From a virus: 11,913 nt of DNA. Where the stretch lies: the UHGV virus genome UHGV-1560991. One strand, written 5' to 3'. Below are positions 2,776 to 11,733 of the stretch, one piece after another. Each line of letters begins with the position of its first letter. Position 1 is the first letter of the stretch. The notes below the pieces were generated by a model. The model worked only from the letters and a program-made list of their open reading frames with translations, was not told where the DNA came from and made no database searches. Made by a program: the position numbers and the translations under genes.

Positions 2776-3202
2776 ATCAATGACTCCGTACGCAATTAAA
2801 TTATTACCAATTTAACCACATATGATTTATTTATCGTAGATAGTTGACATTTACCGCACAAATTATTACCTTTTGGGTAACCAAAGAGTTCATTCCGGTT
2901 ACTAACCTGACTGGCTTGTCGTTAAATTGAACAGGTGGAGTGAGCTTTTATTTTGAGCAGTACGGCGTATGGCACATGCGCCGATAGCGGTCTGGATACG
3001 TTTAAGGGGCACCCTCCCTTGCTCGGGAAAACGAACCAGGTAGCCGGAATGTGCAAGTCGAGCGGTTTTATTCCGCGCACGGGGATTCACCATCCCGGCG
3101 ATTCGGTGTGACGCCTCGGAAGAGACGAGGGTACAACGATGAGAGCATTTATGGAGCCGCGACAAAGTGTGGCGCCTTAACAGGCTAAGTGCTCTCAGCG
3201 TT

Positions 3203-3279
3203 GTGGCATTAGCTCAGCTGGACAGAGCAACTGCCTTCTAAGCGGTTGGTCGCAGGTTCGAATCCTGCATGCCACGCCA
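3203..3279 (+). tRNA. tRNA-Arg (anticodon UCU), argU-like
   Basis: 77-nt cloverleaf read by hand: acceptor GTGGCAT/ATGCCAC, D-stem GCTC/GAGC, anticodon stem ACTGC/GCGGT (one G-U pair), loop CTTCTAA giving anticodon TCT, T-arm GCAGG-TTCGAAT-CCTGC, discriminator G, encoded CCA. Close to E. coli argU as I remember it. Confidence 0.9.
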
Positions 3280-3322
3280 GAATCACGCCTAAGGACCGTG
3301 ATGCCAGAAGTTCCAGGTGCTT

Positions 3323-3365
3323 GGCGGTGATGGTTTCCCTTGAAGGACTATCACCGCCCTTTTTA
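3323..3365 (+). terminator. Hairpin plus T-tract downstream of the tRNA (candidate terminator)
   Basis: 9-bp stem GGCGGTGAT / ATCACCGCC around a long loop, followed by CTTTTT. Confidence 0.35.
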
Positions 3366-3442
3366 CAGCAGGACGCCATTGCGATGACTTCATGCTGTAA
3401 ACCCGTACAGCCACGGAAGGCATAACTCATTGCTTCCAGTTC

Positions 3443-3466
3443 GCCCGGTTCGCCGGGCATTTTTTT
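3443..3466 (+). terminator. Rho-independent terminator-like hairpin
   Basis: GCCCGG-TTCG-CCGGGC (6-bp GC stem, tetraloop), then A and a run of 7 T, ending 11 nt before the ATG of the 3478 gene. Confidence 0.5.
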
Positions 3467-3477
3467 AAGGTGAGATT

Positions 3478-3858
3478 ATGAACGACCAGCAAATCGAAAA
3501 AGAAATCGTTGAGAAAGGTAAAACCGCTCCGCGAATCACCCCGCAGCACATCGAAGACGTGATTAAAAGCGAGCATTACTTTACTGCTTATGATGGACGA
3601 AATGGTGCCATTTCCAGCAACGAATATTGTGGCAGGGAAAAACCAGAAGAAGGCGATCGTGATTTATCACCATTGAAGTTGCTCACTTTCTGCGTACTGG
3701 TGCTGAAGAATGGCTTCACCGTCACCGGAGAGAGTTCCTGTGCAAGCCCGGAAAACTTTGATGCAGAAATTGGTCGGAAGATTGCCCGGCAGAATGCTGT
3801 AAACAAAATCTGGATGCTTGAAGGTTACTTGCTGAAGCAGAAGTTAAGCGAGCAATAA
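3478..3858 (+). CDS. Small plus-strand phage accessory protein (126 aa), possibly Gp49-like family
   Basis: Clean ORF with AAGGTGAG 5 nt upstream of the ATG. It is transcribed opposite to the flanking terminase and portal genes and is followed by a hairpin terminator. The family guess is a weak recollection. Confidence 0.6.
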   Translation: MNDQQIEKEIVEKGKTAPRITPQHIEDVIKSEHYFTAYDGRNGAISSNEYCGREKPEEGDRDLSPLKLLTFCVLVLKNGFTVTGESSCASPENFDAEIGRKIARQNAVNKIWMLEGYLLKQKLSEQ

Positions 3859-3860
3859 CA

Positions 3861-3875
3861 CCGTGACATGTCACA
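3861..3875. repeat. 15-bp element CCGTGACATGTCACA containing the perfect palindrome GTGACATGTCAC (copy 1)
   Basis: Exact 15-mer shared with 6312..6326. Lies immediately 3' of the 3478..3858 gene and is followed by GCCAGCC. Confidence 0.5.
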
Positions 3876-3878
3876 AAC

Positions 3879-3905
3879 AGCCAGCCTATGAGCTGGCTTT
3901 GTTTT
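3879..3905 (+). terminator. Hairpin terminator between the convergent 3478 gene (+) and terminase large subunit (-)
   Basis: Stem AGCCAGC / GCTGGCT (7 bp) with loop CTATGA, followed by TTGTTTT on the plus strand. Confidence 0.45.
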
Positions 3906-3948: not shown

Positions 3949-5424
3949 TTAAGCATAGGGATCGTAATCTGTGATGGCCTTGCCTTGCTGGTTCTGCTGC
4001 CCGGGAATTCGCAGACGCTTCGACACAGGGAACGCAAACGTCAGCAGTAGCGCATCGCCTTTACCCGGCGAACGCCCAAGCCGCTCCTTGATATCTTCCT
4101 TCGGTTCAATAACGATTTTACCGTCCACTCGAACTTTGTACTCTGCCGCCGACAGGTCGTCTGCTGTTTCCTGGTCATCAAGCATGCCGCCCAGCCTCAG
4201 CCATGTCTTACATGAGTTGAACATCTCCCCACGCTTGTTGAGCATCTGCGGGTCAGTAGACGCGCCACCGAATGGAACAAGTTGCCATGTACGTCCCCAG
4301 CCATCACCGATTGACTTCAAACCGGTTCCGTAACCGAAGTCGATGAACACCGCGTCAGCCTGGTACTGGTCTTCAAAGTCAGCGATACGCTTCGCCATAA
4401 TCAGATCGTCGGTGGTCTTGTTGCCGGTCCACAGCACCTTACTGTGCAGCCCCTGCCGCAGGTATATCACCGCTTCATCAACACCGGAGTATGCAGGGTC
4501 AACGCCGATTATCACCGGAGCATGTGCCACCTGCGCAGCAGTTACCACCCGTTTCATTGCCTCGTCAGTAAGACCGGTAGGGATAAACTGCAATTCAGAT
4601 GCATCAGGGAATATGCCGCGCACACGGATTTTAACGAAGTCGCTGTCTTCCCCGTAGTCATCAACCCATTTCTGCAACTGCTGTTTGTTAGTGCCTTCCA
4701 CCGTCCGGCTGTCAATCTGCGCAGTTTTCCAGCGGTGTTTATATTTGCGGAAACATTCGCGGAAACGACCGGTATTACGCGTCGGGTTTCCGAACGCCAC
4801 CCAGATGATTTCGGTGTCTTCGTCCGTCAGCGCACCCTCTGCTACCTCCCACACCAGATCGGCAATGTTGGATGCTTCGTCGAATACCACGATGATGCGT
4901 TTGCGCTCGTTGTGTAGTCCAGCGAATGCCTCAGTGTTGTGCTCAGACCAAGGGATTGCGTCAGCTCGCCACCGCTTGTCGTGCCCAGGATCATTGCTGT
5001 ACATCGCGGTAGCGGTACAGGTAAACCAGTCTTTCGTGATAGCAAGGTTCGACCACTTGATAATTTCCGGCCAGGTCTTCGTTCGTAGCTGGTTGTCGGT
5101 GTTGGCGGTCACCACGACCTTACAATCCTCGCAAGTGGACATGCCCCAGTTGATCAACATTGAGATGAATGCTGATTTACCAATACCGTGACCCGAAGCA
5201 CGTGCCAGCATAAGCGGCTGATAGCGCGTCTCGGGATTCTGCAGGTGATCACGTATCTCTCGGAACGCATCGGCCTGCCACTGACGTGGGCCGGTAGCAT
5301 GTGCCAGTTCAGTCCCCTCTTCCCCCCAAGGGAACGCATAGAGGGCATAGCCAAGCGGATCGTGAGTGAACCCTGCAATATCCTCGATCAACTGCTCTTC
5401 AGGAGATAACGCTGTATTTGTCAC
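3949..5424 (-). CDS. Terminase large subunit
   Basis: 491-aa ORF with a Walker-A-like ARASGHGIGKS motif near the N-terminus, acidic motifs consistent with an ATPase plus nuclease domain, and a start overlapping the stop of the upstream small-subunit gene (5421/5424). Confidence 0.85.
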   Translation of the reverse strand: MTNTALSPEEQLIEDIAGFTHDPLGYALYAFPWGEEGTELAHATGPRQWQADAFREIRDHLQNPETRYQPLMLARASGHGIGKSAFISMLINWGMSTCEDCKVVVTANTDNQLRTKTWPEIIKWSNLAITKDWFTCTATAMYSNDPGHDKRWRADAIPWSEHNTEAFAGLHNERKRIIVVFDEASNIADLVWEVAEGALTDEDTEIIWVAFGNPTRNTGRFRECFRKYKHRWKTAQIDSRTVEGTNKQQLQKWVDDYGEDSDFVKIRVRGIFPDASELQFIPTGLTDEAMKRVVTAAQVAHAPVIIGVDPAYSGVDEAVIYLRQGLHSKVLWTGNKTTDDLIMAKRIADFEDQYQADAVFIDFGYGTGLKSIGDGWGRTWQLVPFGGASTDPQMLNKRGEMFNSCKTWLRLGGMLDDQETADDLSAAEYKVRVDGKIVIEPKEDIKERLGRSPGKGDALLLTFAFPVSKRLRIPGQQNQQGKAITDYDPYA

Positions 5425-6017
5425 TGATTACCATCCTGACGTTCTTTGAGTCGCTTCCTGGCTGCTGCTATGCGATCAGCAATTGTCACATTCACATTAA
5501 CATCCAGACGTTCTTTGAACGCGTTGACATCAACATGCTTACCAATCAGCTCAAGGTTCTTCACCTTGTCAGGCCATTTAATTTTTTTGAGGATTGTCTC
5601 TATCGAATCCTCGTTCATGTTCATGATGGTCGATGACAGATCAAAGCCACTAAGCGTAGTGCGCCAGATTTTCGGCCACTCACGGATTGGTTTAAGGCTC
5701 CCATCGTCGTTGAGGATGTCGATCACGTCCATCTGGTCGATCTCCACCAGGCGCATGAGAACGTAATCAGCACTGACGCGCATTCGTTTGTTGCGCTCCT
5801 CCATCAACTCGGCAATCCGTTTTTGAATGCGTTCATCGCGCATCATGACACTGGCTTTAACTGCCGCTGTATTTGGGGAGAATCCTGCGTTAATCGCTGC
5901 CTGAGTCTGGTTCTCAGGCGTTTTGATGTATGACTGGCAATAAGCCTCCTGCATTGCTGTGAGCGGCTTAAATTGCGTTGATTTGCGTTTATAGGTTTTA
6001 GGTTCAGCAGGCATCAT
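5421..6017 (-). CDS. Terminase small subunit
   Basis: ORF directly upstream of and overlapping the large subunit, with a basic N-terminal region (MMPAEPKTYKRKSTQFKPLTAMQEAYCQSY) typical of terminase small subunits. Start set at the internal Met pair (6017/6014) because the longer track ORF (to 6095) would run through a terminator hairpin at 6061..6086. Confidence 0.75.
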   Translation of the reverse strand: MMPAEPKTYKRKSTQFKPLTAMQEAYCQSYIKTPENQTQAAINAGFSPNTAAVKASVMMRDERIQKRIAELMEERNKRMRVSADYVLMRLVEIDQMDVIDILNDDGSLKPIREWPKIWRTTLSGFDLSSTIMNMNEDSIETILKKIKWPDKVKNLELIGKHVDVNAFKERLDVNVNVTIADRIAAARKRLKERQDGNQ

Positions 6018-6060
6018 AACCACCGTGGTAATAGTTACCGTTGTGGTGATAGTACCATGC

Positions 6061-6086
6061 AAAATAAAGCCGCCATAGTTGGCGGC
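6061..6086 (-). terminator. Rho-independent terminator-like hairpin upstream of the packaging operon
   Basis: On the minus strand: GCCGCCA-ACTA-TGGCGGC (7-bp stem) followed by TTTATTTT, beginning 6 nt after the stop of the 6092..6325 gene. Confidence 0.45.
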
Positions 6087-6091
6087 AGTAT

Positions 6092-6325
6092 TCAAAGTCC
6101 ATCAAATTCATCGTAAAAACTCTCGTCAAGATACCCTTCCCATTTACCGCGAATGAAAATTACATCCTCGCCGCAAGGGTGCTGACTGTCGATAACTATA
6201 TCCCTCCTGGCGCAACCATACTTATGCATGAGAAATTTAACCTCTTTCGGAAAATTTGCTGAGTTATCTCTCATATCTTCAAGGTCGTAGCGTATTTTTG
6301 GCATAACACATCCGTGACATGTCAC
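6092..6325 (-). CDS. Hypothetical small protein (77 aa as in ORF track; alternative start MPKIRYD at 6304 gives 70 aa)
   Basis: ORF between the 113-aa gene and the terminator. No family recognised. The 6325 start lies inside a perfect 12-bp palindrome, so the internal Met may be the true start. Confidence 0.5.
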   Translation of the reverse strand: MTCHGCVMPKIRYDLEDMRDNSANFPKEVKFLMHKYGCARRDIVIDSQHPCGEDVIFIRGKWEGYLDESFYDEFDGL

Positions 6326-6326
6326 A
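6312..6326. repeat. 15-bp element CCGTGACATGTCACA containing the perfect palindrome GTGACATGTCAC (copy 2)
   Basis: Exact 15-mer shared with 3861..3875. Lies at the 3' end of the 113-aa gene and the 5' end of the 77-aa gene. Both copies are preceded by ATAACAC and followed within about 30 bp by GCCAGCC. Confidence 0.5.
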
Positions 6327-6663
6327 CTATTAATTTCGTTTCATGCCAGCCTTTGGTCACCCAGCATTGCGAGTCACCATTACACGGGCATGAATTCACA
6401 GGAACTCTCTCGCCGCACTTACCGCAACGTTTTCTGCTGATCGATTTTATACGCCCGCGCACGCGTGCATCATCCTGGCGGATCAGTAACGCTATATACT
6501 CACCAAATTCGTAAGGCGCACGCCCGGGGCGACGTGTGGCACAGTTACGCTCCAGCATTTCAATTTCCTGAGCATCAAGCACAATCTCCAGCTTACGTAC
6601 ACCGGATTCAGCTTGTCTGGCTCTCTGAGCGGCTTTGCGCTCTGCTGCTGATTTAGCCATCAA
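6322..6663 (-). CDS. Hypothetical protein with an N-terminal ribbon-helix-helix-like region and a C-terminal Cys-rich (zinc-ribbon-like) region
   Basis: The N-terminal segment (ERKAAQRARQAESGVRKLEIVLDAQEIEMLERNCATRR) resembles the small LexA-regulated CopG/RHH-type protein YbfE as I recall it. The C-terminus carries CGKCGERVPVNSCPCNGDSQC. Overlaps the upstream gene by about 11 nt. Confidence 0.5.
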   Translation of the reverse strand: MMAKSAAERKAAQRARQAESGVRKLEIVLDAQEIEMLERNCATRRPGRAPYEFGEYIALLIRQDDARVRGRIKSISRKRCGKCGERVPVNSCPCNGDSQCWVTKGWHETKLIV

Positions 6664-9994: not shown

Positions 9995-10011
9995 GATTTC
10001 CCTCTGAGGTA

Positions 10012-10040
10012 ATTAAAAACCACATAAGACATGAAATCAA
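10012..10040 (-). promoter_or_regulatory. Candidate sigma70-type promoter for the DUF1064 operon
   Basis: On the minus strand: TTGATT, a 17-nt spacer, then TTTAAT, about 17 nt upstream of the DUF1064 start. A short GCGC-GATA-GCGC hairpin plus T7 run lies downstream of the P-like gene in the same gap. Confidence 0.3.
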
Positions 10041-10111
10041 TAGAAATTAGAACATTTTATTACCTAAAAGGTAATCATGTAGGCGTAAAAAAATGCGCTA
10101 TCGCGCTGGTA

Positions 10112-10912
10112 TTACTTGATAAATCCTGCCGCCTTTCCCCGCCTGTATTCCTCCATCAGCCACTGCGCCGGTGTTATTCCCCCCAGGGTGGCGGCGTTAG
10201 GCATGCACCCGAAACTTCGCCCTGGCGGGTGGTAAACGTCTCTCCCTGTGTCCGGAGGCGTACTCATGGGTTCTGGCTTTGCCTGTATGCTGATCACCGG
10301 ATCGGGTATCTGCTGTCCGGAAGCCACCTTTTTCGCCCAATCATCGAGCAGCCTGCGCGCGTGTTTCTCAACCTCAATCTCGCTAAGCTGGCGCTGATAC
10401 ATTGCACGGCGGGTGTCACATACAACCCAGTACATAACCGGATGCCGCCACGGGAATCTTTCGGGACCACCAGGATATAAACTTTTTTCCTTGCTGTACC
10501 GGTGAAACTCCGCCATCACATCGTCAATGGTGACGCCAAGAACCATCTTGCTGTCTTTACACCACTTGATGAATTGCCCTGGCGACGGCCAGAACGGAGA
10601 TTCACTGGCGCGGGCGTGGCGCATACCAGCAGAAACCTGTTCACGGGTTCGGATCCCCCCTTCGGCAAACGCAGCAATCCACTGCTGTTTTGCAGCAGCT
10701 TCCTGCTCTGGCGTCTTCAGGTTGGTTACCACTGCCGCTGGAAACAGTTGTTTCAGCTGTTTGAAAAGGGCATCAACAAGCCTCTCTGCTGACATGTTCA
10801 CCACGTTGTCATTGTTGGTGTACTGATGCTCATAACCTGACATGCGAGAAAGGGCTTCTCCGTCACGGTTTTGTATCGCGGTAAAAACGTTGTTCACAAG
10901 AAATCCTCCCAT
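10112..10912 (-). CDS. Replication protein P-like (DnaB helicase loader, lambda P family)
   Basis: Collinear similarity to lambda P as I recall it: GIRTREQVSAGMRHARASESPFWPSPGQFIKWC vs GITTMEQVNAGMRVARRQNRPFLPSPGQFVAWC, plus an earlier LFPA vs TFPA match. Alternative GTG start at 10897 has GGAGGA 6 nt upstream and forms a GTGA overlap with the O-like stop. Confidence 0.85.
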   Translation of the reverse strand: MGGFLVNNVFTAIQNRDGEALSRMSGYEHQYTNNDNVVNMSAERLVDALFKQLKQLFPAAVVTNLKTPEQEAAAKQQWIAAFAEGGIRTREQVSAGMRHARASESPFWPSPGQFIKWCKDSKMVLGVTIDDVMAEFHRYSKEKSLYPGGPERFPWRHPVMYWVVCDTRRAMYQRQLSEIEVEKHARRLLDDWAKKVASGQQIPDPVISIQAKPEPMSTPPDTGRDVYHPPGRSFGCMPNAATLGGITPAQWLMEEYRRGKAAGFIK

Positions 10913-11733
10913 GCTTCAGGGCTGTTCCAGTGCGGAACGTTGTTATCAGGTAATGTTGATTGCTTCTGTCTGCTAATCTGCAGCCGCCTTGCCAGCTTCT
11001 GCTCCCACTGTGCCTGATGGTATGCCTTACCCTCAGCCATCCAGTAAATTCTGAACTCTGCAAGTTCCTGTGCCGTTGGCAGACTGTCCAGGTAGATCCC
11101 CTGCAATGAGCTTTTCCGAAGAAAGTCATCTGATGGCTGCCATTGTTCATGCATGACAAATTTGCCTAATTGCCCTGGCCCACCAGGAGGAACAAAGTTA
11201 TTCATCACGGCGTTGTTTGCGCCGGGGTCATGAGGCACAGAATCCCCGGTTTTTGTCCTGCTCTCCCTCTCTTGGTTAAATGACTGGTTATATGACTGGT
11301 TCTGGATCCCGTTTTTGGGATCATTCAACATCCCGTTTTTGGGATCATTCAACATCCCGTTTTTGGGATCATTCAACATCTCGTTTTTGGGTATATTCCC
11401 GTTTTCGGGAACATTACCGTTTTCGGGTTCATTACACCCATCTAGGTTGCCTTTAATGTTCCCTTTTTTGGTTATATTAAGAGAGAAAACCCGCACTCTT
11501 TTCGTCGCTCCCTTTCTCTCTCCGGTATCTGAAATAAGCCCCATTTTCATGAGCGATATAAGCCCGGCCTGTACGGTTTTTTTATTCAGGCAAGTGTCTT
11601 TAACGAGGCGTTCTATGCTGGGGTAGCAGAGGTTATATTCATCGGCTCTGTCAGCCATCGAGAGCAGTATGAGCTTTAATGACGAGCTACCTGGATCTGT
11701 CTCCCAGGCCCAATCTGTTGCATGTCTGCTCAT
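10894..11733 (-). CDS. Replication initiator O-like protein (N-terminal HTH DNA-binding domain, internal iteron-encoded repeats)
   Basis: 279-aa ORF immediately upstream of the P-like gene. The coding sequence contains tandem iteron-like DNA repeats that translate to PKNGMLND three times. The N-terminal region looks like a helix-turn-helix domain. Confidence 0.8.
   Translation of the reverse strand: MSRHATDWAWETDPGSSSLKLILLSMADRADEYNLCYPSIERLVKDTCLNKKTVQAGLISLMKMGLISDTGERKGATKRVRVFSLNITKKGNIKGNLDGCNEPENGNVPENGNIPKNEMLNDPKNGMLNDPKNGMLNDPKNGIQNQSYNQSFNQERESRTKTGDSVPHDPGANNAVMNNFVPPGGPGQLGKFVMHEQWQPSDDFLRKSSLQGIYLDSLPTAQELAEFRIYWMAEGKAYHQAQWEQKLARRLQISRQKQSTLPDNNVPHWNSPEAWEDFL
11303..11435. repeat. 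Iteron array (putative phage origin of replication) inside the O-like gene
   Basis: Two exact 24-bp tandem units CATCCCGTTTTTGGGATCATTCAA (11329..11352, 11353..11376), a near-copy ending at 11328 and a degenerate fourth unit at 11377..11400, then two CCGTTTTCGGG units about 19 bp apart. Each unit has TCCC...GGGA dyad symmetry, like the lambda ori iteron TCCCTCAAAACGAGGGA. Confidence 0.75.

What the first reader, a model, noticed from the sequence alone, without database searches (positions are those of the whole stretch)
3861..3875. Exact 15-bp palindrome-containing element present twice, each at the 3' end of a gene (copy 1 of 2)
CCGTGACATGTCACA occurs at 3861..3875 and again at 6312..6326, with the same ATAACAC upstream and GCCAGCC downstream context. 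An exact 15-mer recurring by chance in 12 kb is unlikely, and the core GTGACATGTCAC is a perfect 12-bp palindrome, typical of a dimeric DNA-binding protein site (operator, or a recombination or modification target). None of the annotated genes explains it.
Basis: seen in the sequence. Interest (0 to 1): 0.5.

Follow-up and report, generated by a model that had tools for sequence, protein, structure and literature searches.

The report
Phage regulator's conserved 12-bp DNA site
The repeated palindrome is real and is one of about three copies per phage genome of a site, GTGAC-NN-GTCAC, that always travels with one small uncharacterised phage DNA-binding protein whose own stop codon lies inside one copy; it is most likely that protein's binding site, and neither appears to have been described.

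Summary
CCGTGACATGTCACA is exact at 3861-3875 and 6312-6326, and no shuffle reaches this.

The window is an epsilon15/phiV10-like (Uetakevirus) prophage. The conserved unit is Y-GTGAC-NN-GTCAC-R, with the centre usually AT. Uetakeviruses carry three copies:
- (a) on the stop codon of gp49/p55 (window 6322-6660, minus strand);
- (b) between terL and a reversed moron, next to a terminator (window copy 1);
- (c) at the end of the structural operon, outside the window.

In an independent sample of 52 p55-homologue loci from many genera, 48 hold an exact site and 32 have it at the gene's end. Chance predicts about 0.02 sites per locus. The 2-nt spacer is specific: 78 hits, against 0-3 for other spacers. 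p55 is the only gene shared by all site-bearing phages examined (podo-, sipho- and P2-like). Lambda and P2 have neither the protein nor the site.

The p55 model is a ribbon-helix-helix fold plus a Cys4 knuckle. The half-sites equal those of E. coli matS (MatP site), but the spacing differs and no sequence homology is detectable.

Best reading: this is the cognate DNA site of p55 (about 0.8). It probably acts as a boundary or roadblock element between transcription units (about 0.4). Binding and function are untested.

The parts
3861..3875 (.). Copy 1 of the 15-mer. The core palindrome GTGACATGTCAC is at 3863-3874. This is site (b), between the end of terL (minus strand) and the end of the reversed PF13876 gene (plus strand).
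   Evidence: The same position is occupied in phiV10, eps15, Tyrion, Klebsiella phage L182 and GTDB loci L127/128/130/132/134.
6312..6326 (.). Copy 2 of the 15-mer. The core palindrome is at 6314-6325. This is site (a), which contains the TGA stop codon of the p55 gene.
   Evidence: The same overlap is seen in about 45 IMG/VR loci and in 18 of 52 GTDB loci.
6322..6660 (-). p55 gene (eps15 gp49 / phiV10 p55 / N15 gp46 family; phrog_536), 112 aa. It has an N-terminal basic helix, a ribbon-helix-helix core and a C-terminal Cys4 zinc-ribbon-like knuckle. It is the presumed protein that binds the palindrome.
3478..3858 (+). Reversed accessory gene (moron) of the N4 gp49 / Sf6 gp66 family. Its TAA stop lies 4 nt before the core palindrome of copy 1.
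   Evidence: PF13876, E = 1.8e-34; the central part is mosaic, while the C-terminus, stop, palindrome and terminator are conserved.
3876..3905 (+). Intrinsic terminator directly after copy 1: stem AGCCAGC/GCTGGCT at 3879-3898, followed by TTGTTTT. It is functional in the + direction and has only a poor U-tract in the terL direction.
6092..6304 (-). 70-aa ORF (phrog_1541) inserted between the p55 stop/palindrome and the terminator that precedes terS. Its ATG lies 9 nt after the palindrome.
   Evidence: Relatives keep only an 8-codon remnant.
6061..6086 (-). Intrinsic terminator at the end of the early-right operon: GCCGCCaactatGGCGGC followed by TTTATTTT. In relatives without the ORF70 insertion it lies 22-45 nt after site (a).
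6017..6049 (.). Two TTACC-N5-GGTAA-like palindromes just upstream of the terS start. They match the sites annotated as 'repressor' sites in the eps15 record. They mark the start of the next transcription unit and are a different motif from the finding.
3949..6017 (-). terS (5421-6017) and terL (3949-5424). This is the transcription unit bracketed by site (a) and site (b).

Best explanation
The palindrome is the DNA recognition site of the phage's own small ribbon-helix-helix plus zinc-ribbon protein, p55 (eps15 gp49 / N15 gp46 family). Its full form is Y-GTGAC-NN-GTCAC-R.

A p55 dimer is proposed to sit on the dyad, with each subunit reading one YGTGAC half-site and the two central bases tolerated. 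One site is welded to the regulator's own gene, because the TGA stop is bases 2-4 of the site. Protein and site are therefore inherited together in these mosaic phages. Further sites lie in the short non-coding gaps at ends of genes and operons. In Uetakeviruses these are after terL, next to a converging moron and its terminator (window copy 1), and at the end of the structural operon.

The most likely action is that bound p55 works as a symmetric, bidirectional boundary element. It would be a protein roadblock or insulator that limits read-through between adjacent or converging transcription units, supplementing terminators that work in one direction only. It would also feed back on its own transcript.

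Shown: the sites exist, their sequence, spacing and positions are conserved, they co-occur exclusively with p55, and p55 is predicted to have an RHH fold. Inferred: that p55 binds the site (probability about 0.8). More weakly inferred: the roadblock or boundary function (about 0.4, conditional on binding).
For: 1. Chance is excluded. There are 2 exact 15-mers in the window. There are 2-3 exact 12-mers per genome in eps15, phiV10, Tyrion and N15, against 0.02-0.055 in shuffles.

2. Linkage to p55. The stop codon lies inside the site in about 45 IMG/VR loci, even at 46-55% protein identity and with unrelated downstream DNA. The last sense codon varies (GTG, ATG, TTG, CCG, GCG, CTG). The DNA base is therefore conserved, not the amino acid.

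3. Independent sample. 52 loci were found through the protein's N-terminus. Of these, 48 hold at least one exact site and 32 have it at or within 20 nt of the gene's end.

4. Spacer specificity. N2 occurs 78 times, against 0-3 for N0, N1 and N3-N6 and for the everted control, in 1.17 Mb.

5. p55 is the only phiV10 ORF with homologues in all of N15, a P2-like Yersinia phage, Vibrio K303, and the Proteus, Providencia and Xenorhabdus prophages. All of these carry the site. Lambda and P2 have neither the protein nor the site.

7. A DNA site is favoured over an RNA element. The hairpin is worth -1.2 kcal/mol and no RNA structure is consistent across copies. Flanks prefer Y on each half-site but are complementary in only 26 of 81 sites, against 0.47 expected. 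N15 copies occur in both orientations relative to transcription.

8. Boundary positions. Sites lie at ends of the early-right, terS-terL and structural units, next to terminators. They lie in intercistronic gaps in Morganellaceae prophages. In N15 and phiKO2 one lies between the repA operon and the antirepressor-operon promoter.
Against: There is no binding data of any kind.

The beta-strand residues that normally read bases in RHH proteins are variable in the family. The conserved residues are instead in the N-terminal basic helix and an RRPGR-PY loop. The reading head is therefore unclear.

The roadblock role is inferred from position only. Compact phage genomes leave few non-coding gaps other than gene ends, so position may simply reflect where a 12-bp palindrome can be accommodated. 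A few sites lie inside coding regions: a cII-position gene, N15 repA and the start of some Q genes. Some sites sit 6-24 nt upstream of promoter-like hexamers, which would also fit activation.

p55 is encoded in the early lytic operon, so it is probably absent in lysogens. Three or four p55 loci show no exact site within 10 kb, and none was found in 6 kb of an Aeromonas phage.
Confidence: 0.45

Rival explanations
1. p55 and the site form a late-gene switch of the antitermination type. p55 bound next to terminators (a), (b) and (c) would let RNA polymerase coming from the early-right operon read through into terS-terL, the structural genes and beyond. This resembles the Q/qut layout: regulator gene, then site, then terminator, then late genes.
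For: In Uetakeviruses p55 is the last early-right gene, directly upstream of the terminase genes. The site is followed 0-45 nt later by a terminator hairpin. terS is the commonest downstream neighbour of p55. A Vibrio phage has a site 19 nt upstream of terS. No Q-like gene is annotated in eps15 or phiV10.
Against: N15 and phiKO2 have their own Q, and the P2-like Yersinia phage has an Ogr-type regulator, yet all keep p55 and its sites. Many sites have no terminator nearby. At (b) the terminator is oriented for the converging moron, not for late transcription. No promoter or pause element lies between site and terminator. The late units have their own operator-bearing starts.
Confidence: 0.12
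2. The pair is an architectural system that works like MatP/matS. p55 dimers bound to a few dispersed matS-like sites would bridge or mark phage DNA. The purpose could be replication, packaging or segregation, or interference with host MukBEF/SMC-type machinery. Transcription would not be the target.
Against: No sequence homology to MatP is detectable (hhalign probability 0.08%) and there is no MatP Pfam hit. The spacer differs (N2, not N3). The model has no four-helix bundle or coiled coil. A genome holds only 1-4 sites. Nothing links p55 to MukB or ZapB.
Confidence: 0.12
3. The element acts in RNA. It would be a small hairpin or protein-binding motif at the stop codon and ribosome-binding region, controlling translational coupling, mRNA 3'-end stability or processing.
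For: The site contains TGA and ATG (G-TGA-C-ATG-TCAC). The TGA serves as the stop of p55, eps15 gp18 and others. In Proteus and Providencia prophages the ATG serves as the start of a head-module gene. Many sites lie 9-20 nt upstream of a start codon, next to a Shine-Dalgarno sequence.
Against: The hairpin is only 4 bp and -1.2 kcal/mol, no better than shuffles. Predicted folds differ between copies. The flanks do not covary to extend a stem. The non-palindromic N15 variant occurs in both orientations relative to the mRNA. The RHH fold is a double-stranded-DNA reader. There is no Rfam match.
Confidence: 0.07
4. The sequence has no trans-acting partner. It would be a passive conserved linker or recombination anchor at module boundaries of mosaic phages, or a duplicated piece of flanking sequence.
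For: Copy 1 sits at the edge of a mosaic moron. Copy 2 sits at the edge of an insertion/deletion involving ORF70. The two window copies share a few flanking bases.
Against: Only the 12-14 bp are shared between copies, and the flanks are unrelated. The site is conserved from Vibrio to Escherichia phages with strict spacing. It follows p55 into unrelated phage types. Passive linkers would not keep a perfect dyad.
Confidence: 0.04
5. The site is read by a host factor (MatP itself or another conserved enterobacterial protein), or it is a target of a restriction-modification enzyme or methyltransferase.
For: The half-sites match matS. eps15 and phiV10 encode methyltransferases.
Against: The spacer is 2 nt, not 3, and only one 13-bp matS-type sequence occurs in 1.17 Mb. 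Sites track p55 rather than the host: lambda and P2 from the same host have none. The methyltransferases are not shared by all site-bearing phages.
Confidence: 0.04

Closest known systems
MatP / matS of E. coli (Ter macrodomain organiser)
   Same: The inverted half-sites GTGAC...GTCAC are the same. Several copies are dispersed over the replicon, some of them inside genes.
   Different: matS is 13 bp with a 3-nt spacer (RNY), whereas the phage site is 12 bp with a strict 2-nt spacer. No sequence homology is detectable. p55 has a short basic helix in place of the four-helix bundle and a Cys4 knuckle in place of the coiled coil. It is phage-borne, with 1-4 sites per 35-50 kb, and one site is fused to the gene's stop codon.
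Stoperators of mycobacteriophage L5 and cluster A phages (from my own knowledge: Brown et al. 1997, EMBO J)
   Same: Short specific protein-binding sites are repeated along the phage genome. They sit in small gaps at gene ends inside transcribed regions, not at promoters. Their proposed action is to block elongation.
   Different: Stoperators are asymmetric, orientation-dependent and number 20-30 per genome. They are bound by the HTH immunity repressor in lysogens. Here the site is a perfect dyad with few copies, and the presumed binder is an early lytic RHH protein.
Lambda Q / qut and other lambdoid late antiterminators
   Same: The layout in Uetakeviruses is similar: the regulator gene is last in the early-right operon, its site comes immediately after, then a terminator, then the packaging and late genes.
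   Different: No promoter or sigma-dependent pause lies between site and terminator. Extra sites occur at other junctions. The protein is unrelated to Q. N15 and phiKO2 carry both a Q and a p55.
RHH repressors with palindromic operators (Arc, Mnt, CopG, MetJ, type II antitoxins)
   Different: Their operators overlap the promoters of their own operons. The p55 site overlaps the 3' end of its own gene, and the other copies lie at ends of other units. The added Cys4 domain and the conserved RRPGR-PY loop are not features of those families.

Membership tests
MatP/matS system | Protein homologous to MatP (Pfam MatP family) | tested here: not met
   hhalign of the 149-sequence p55 alignment against E. 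coli MatP gave probability 0.08%. There is no MatP family among the Pfam hits of any member, and the PDB profile search finds nothing.
MatP/matS system | 13-bp site GTGACRNYGTCAC (3-nt spacer) | tested here: not met
   The half-sites are identical but the spacer is 2 nt. N2 occurs 78 times and N3 once in 1.17 Mb. The matS consensus is taken from PMC6907758.
MatP/matS system | Domain plan: four-helix bundle, then RHH, then C-terminal coiled coil | tested here: not met
   The AF2 model has one basic helix, an RHH core with a long second helix, and a Cys-rich knuckle. The MatP domain plan is taken from PMC12756933.
Ribbon-helix-helix (CopG/Arc/MetJ) DNA-binding superfamily | Strand-helix-helix topology that matches solved RHH domains | tested here: met
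Ribbon-helix-helix (CopG/Arc/MetJ) DNA-binding superfamily | Dimer that inserts a two-stranded sheet into the major groove of a symmetric or repeated site | not testable with these tools
   Only a monomer could be modelled and there is no DNA docking. A symmetric site with per-half-site flank preference fits this feature.
Classical operator (repressor site overlapping a promoter) | Site overlaps the -35/-10 elements or the transcription start of the regulated promoter | tested here: not met
   There is no promoter-like match at either window copy. Sites lie at gene 3' ends and in intercistronic gaps. In some relatives a promoter lies 6-24 nt downstream, not overlapping.
Intrinsic terminator (as the explanation of the palindrome itself) | G+C-rich hairpin followed by a U-tract | tested here: not met
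   The palindrome folds to only -1.2 kcal/mol and has no U-tract. A separate genuine terminator lies next to copy 1 at 3879-3905.
Q/qut-type antitermination module | Promoter with a Q-binding element and a promoter-proximal pause, upstream of the terminator | tested here: not met
   There is no promoter between site and terminator. p55 is unrelated to Q families. It coexists with Q in N15 and phiKO2.
Stoperator-like elongation blocks | Multiple sites in transcribed intergenic gaps, bound by a phage protein that stops elongation | tested here: inconclusive
   The positions fit. Binding and blocking are untested. Unlike true stoperators, the site is symmetric and the presumed binder is not the immunity repressor.
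Known RNA families (Rfam) | Match to a curated covariance model | tested here: not met
   The only Rfam hit in the window is a tRNA at 3203-3276. Nothing matches at either copy.

The most novel reading that the evidence does not exclude
p55 and its sites are a phage-borne counterpart of MatP/matS. A small RHH protein would mark the phage chromosome at a few matS-like sites that are offset by one base pair, so that host MatP and p55 do not cross-talk. The purpose would be to bridge phage DNA or to unload or block host SMC-type machines (MukBEF, or Wadjet-like defences). This would be a genome-organisation or counter-defence function rather than gene regulation.
Probability: 0.1. Interest if true: 0.85.

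Novelty: new variant of a known kind. Interest (0 to 1): 0.6.

Why it matters
This gives an uncharacterised but widespread phage protein family a concrete, testable DNA target. The family includes eps15 gp49, phiV10 p55 and N15 gp46 (phrog_536). It comprises about 224 clusters at 50% identity and is found in podo-, sipho- and myovirus prophages of Enterobacterales and Vibrio.

The arrangement is unusual in three ways. The regulator's stop codon is built into its own site. The remaining sites punctuate the ends of transcription units rather than promoters. The half-sites are those of the host's matS.

If the boundary or roadblock reading is right, it would be a Gram-negative analogue of stoperator-type control and would explain how these mosaic phages insulate converging morons from late operons. 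If the MatP-like reading is right, it would be a new way for phages to organise or protect their DNA. Either way, a one-day EMSA and a reporter assay would settle the first step.

Tried and rejected
- **Literature.** Full-text searches for GTGACATGTCAC and TGACATGTCA found nothing relevant. The eps15 genome paper is not held. Searches on eps15/phiV10/Uetakevirus and on N15 gp46 gave nothing on this site or protein.
- **False lead.** 'gp46' detected in lysogens of telomere phage NAR688 is that phage's cB-like repressor, not the N15 gp46 family.
- **Protein annotation.** Pfam, NCBIfam and PADLOC give no family for p55. PDB sequence and profile searches are empty. hhalign against MatP is negative.
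- **Promoter idea.** GTGACA resembles a -35 element. An eps15-type -10 sequence (TAAATT) lies at 17 nt, but it is not conserved in phiV10-type or other contexts, and the scan finds no promoter at either copy.
- **RNA hairpin or Rfam element.** Rejected.
- **CRP/FNR-, LacI- and LexA-type host sites.** Considered from memory and rejected on spacing and sequence. The LexA boxes found nearby are separate elements.
- **Shared flanks (ATAACAC, GCCAGCC).** They have a different register and unrelated functions.
- **Collection scan with IUPAC flanks.** The plain 14-mer scan returns many chance or coding hits, such as tail-fibre-like genes and Q gene starts, which were set aside.
- **Plasmid search.** It only returned N15/phiKO2-like phage-plasmids.

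Full report
**Observation.** The 15-mer CCGTGACATGTCACA occurs exactly at 3861-3875 and 6312-6326. Allowing 3 mismatches, 5 matches are found against 0.28 expected, and none of 200 shuffles reaches this. The core GTGACATGTCAC is a perfect palindrome.

Copy 1 begins 2 nt after the TAA of the + strand gene 3478-3858 (PF13876, the N4 gp49/Sf6 gp66 family). It is followed after 4 nt by an intrinsic terminator at 3879-3905. Copy 2 contains the TGA stop of the minus-strand gene 6322-6660.

**What the window is.** It is an epsilon15/phiV10-like podophage prophage (Uetakevirus) with its late genes on the minus strand. In that direction the order is:
- p55 (6660 to 6322), with site (a) on its stop;
- a 70-aa inserted ORF (6304 to 6092);
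- a terminator (6086 to 6061);
- two TTACC-N5-GGTAA palindromes;
- terS (6017 to 5421) and terL (5424 to 3949);
- a hairpin;
- site (b), followed by the reversed PF13876 gene.

**The palindrome is a conserved element with about three copies per genome.** eps15 has it at 2142, 19517 and 39612. phiV10 has it at 2262 and 19493, plus a one-mismatch copy across the record junction. Tyrion, Klebsiella phage ST11-OXA245phi3.2 and PAS61 have it at the same three places. The three places are:
- (a) on the stop codon of gp49/p55, ahead of the terminator that precedes terS;
- (b) between the end of terL and the end of a reversed moron, with the terminator oriented for the moron;
- (c) right after the last structural-operon gene, abutting its terminator and converging with an antirepressor or moron gene.

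Shuffled genomes give 0.02-0.055 copies. The window therefore holds (a) and (b). By analogy with PAS61, (c) should lie outside it.

**Link to one protein.** A scan of IMG/VR for the 14-mer returned 120 loci. In about 45 of them a p55 homologue ends in the site. This holds at 46-55% identity and with entirely different downstream DNA: a terminator, a LexA-box promoter, or the SD and ATG of another gene. N15 gp46 (35% identity) ends in GTGAC-TG-GTCAC.

To avoid circularity I collected 52 loci from GTDB genomes through the protein's N-terminal peptide only. They include Citrobacter, Klebsiella, Pantoea, Xenorhabdus, Providencia, Proteus, Rahnella and Brenneria. Results:
- 48 of 52 carry at least one exact GTGAC-NN-GTCAC within 10 kb, against about 0.02 expected per locus;
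- in 18 the TGA stop is inside the site;
- in 12 the site starts 5-7 nt after the stop;
- in 2 it lies in the last codons.

The last sense codon varies (GTG, ATG, TTG, CCG, GCG, CTG), so the DNA is constrained rather than the residue.

In 1.17 Mb of p55-bearing sequence the 2-nt spacer occurs 78 times. Spacers of 0, 1 and 3-6 nt, and the everted arrangement, occur 0-3 times each.

A logo of 81 non-redundant sites gives Y-GTGAC-(A)(T)-GTCAC-R. The centre is AT in 62 of them, and AC, CT, GT, TG or others in the rest.

p55 is the only phiV10 ORF with homologues in all of N15, a P2-like Yersinia phage, Vibrio phage K303, and the Proteus, Providencia and Xenorhabdus prophages. Each of these has the site. 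N15 and phiKO2 share three sites at homologous positions. Lambda and P2 have neither protein nor site.

**The protein.** p55 has no Pfam, NCBIfam or PADLOC family. It is phrog_536, labelled 'transcriptional regulator'. All homologues are annotated as hypothetical, with 718 and 959 hits in the two searches. The family spans 224 clusters at 50% identity among 1.84 billion representatives.

**matS resemblance.** matS is GTGACRNYGTCAC (PMC6907758), and MatP reads it with a central RHH (PMC12756933). The phage site has the same half-sites but is one base pair shorter. Sequence homology to MatP is not detectable and the domain plans differ. The phage pair therefore resembles MatP/matS in how the DNA is recognised, but it is not a member of that family.

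**DNA or RNA?** The palindrome alone folds to -1.2 kcal/mol, no better than shuffles, and predicted folds differ among copies. The flanks prefer a pyrimidine 5' of each half-site but are Watson-Crick complementary in only 26 of 81 sites, against 0.47 expected if independent. They therefore do not extend a stem. The non-palindromic N15 variant occurs in both orientations relative to transcription. There is no Rfam match. A duplex-DNA site for a symmetric dimer is the simplest reading.

**What it does.** This part is inference. Sites lie in the short gaps at gene and operon ends, often 0-4 nt from a stop codon. Examples:
- next to terminators in Uetakeviruses;
- between cistrons of early and head operons in Morganellaceae prophages;
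- between the repA operon and a promoter-like TTGACG-N17-TAGAGT in the antirepressor leader of N15 and phiKO2;
- 19 nt before terS in a Vibrio phage.

In eps15-type phages each late unit starts with a TTACC-N5-GGTAA palindrome (annotated 'repressor' in the eps15 record) and ends with the GTGAC palindrome.

A symmetric protein roadblock or insulator at unit boundaries fits sites both with and without terminators, and it fits converging junctions. A site on the regulator's own stop codon would also give feedback and would guarantee co-inheritance of protein and site.

The alternatives are Q-like antitermination, a MatP-like architectural role and an RNA-level role. They are weighed in the rival section, and none is excluded by data.

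My estimates are about 0.8 that p55 binds the site and about 0.4 that, given binding, the main effect is boundary or roadblock control.

**Novelty.** I found no description of the motif or of the protein's function. An RHH protein with a palindromic target is a known kind. The stop-codon-embedded site, the end-of-unit placement and the matS-type half-sites make this a new variant worth a bench test.

Noticed in passing
window 3203-3279 (+): A tRNA-Arg (anticodon TCT) gene lies on the same strand as the reversed PF13876 moron. It overlaps the 3' part of the ORF 3209-3460 (-), which is annotated as a hypothetical protein in phiV10 (p04). That ORF may therefore be a mis-call.
   Followed up: partly
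window 11273-11435: Iteron-like tandem repeats lie inside the DnaT-like replication gene (10894-11733, minus strand): 24 bp x 3.6 at 11306-11391, 18 bp x 3 at 11382-11435 and 12 bp x 2.4 at 11273-11301. This is probably the replication origin.
   Followed up: no
window 2866-2880, 6017-6049, 9998-10012, 10060-10074: There are five TTACC-N5-GGTAA palindromes, and 0 of 200 shuffles reach five. They equal the sites annotated 'repressor' in the eps15 record and sit at the starts of the late units and after the replication genes. Each late unit thus starts with this motif and ends with GTGACATGTCAC.
   Followed up: partly
window 6092-6304 (-): A 70-aa ORF (phrog_1541) is inserted between the p55 stop/palindrome and the terS terminator. 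phiV10-type relatives keep only an 8-codon remnant, M-x-DEFDGF*, ending 7 nt before the terminator.
   Followed up: partly
L008, L026, L127; L182 25770-25840: In several relatives a LexA-box promoter (TTGACT ... TACTGT-N8-ACAGTA) starts 6 nt after site (a). In the Klebsiella phage L182 the gene it precedes is an annotated UmuD-like moron between p55 and terS.
   Followed up: partly
L006 (N15) 28550, 33237, 39269; L185 (phiKO2) 6784, 11664, 17541: The telomere phages N15 and phiKO2 share three GTGAC-TG-GTCAC sites at homologous positions. One is on the gp46 stop and one is inside repA. The third is about 24 nt upstream of a promoter-like TTGACG-N17-TAGAGT in the leader of the icd/antA/antB antirepressor operon.
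   Followed up: partly
L013, L018, L023, L116, L125; L164 position 256: Some lambdoid Q antiterminator genes begin ATG-CGTGACATGTCAC-AG (MRDMSQ...), which places the palindrome on the Q start. I did not resolve whether this is a coding coincidence or a real site.
   Followed up: no
L141, L151, L162, L166, L167, L169, L170, L176, L178 (for example L170 6138): In Morganellaceae prophages an exact site lies inside the 3' part of a 151-153-aa gene in the cII position (...LLEGRDMSH...), 3.6-6.4 kb upstream of p55. It is conserved at the nucleotide level while the flanking codons vary.
   Followed up: partly
L025, L044, L054, L073, L111: Unrelated IMG/VR loci contain arrays of GTGAC/GTCAC half-sites at roughly helical spacing around one full palindrome. 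They look like iterons for some other GTGAC-reading protein.
   Followed up: no
L181 8073-11728: In the P2-like Yersinia phage vB_YenM_42.18 the p55 homologue sits in the accessory hotspot, directly upstream of an 872-aa Ppl-like defence ATPase. The phage's single site lies at the 3' end of that block, at 11708.
   Followed up: partly
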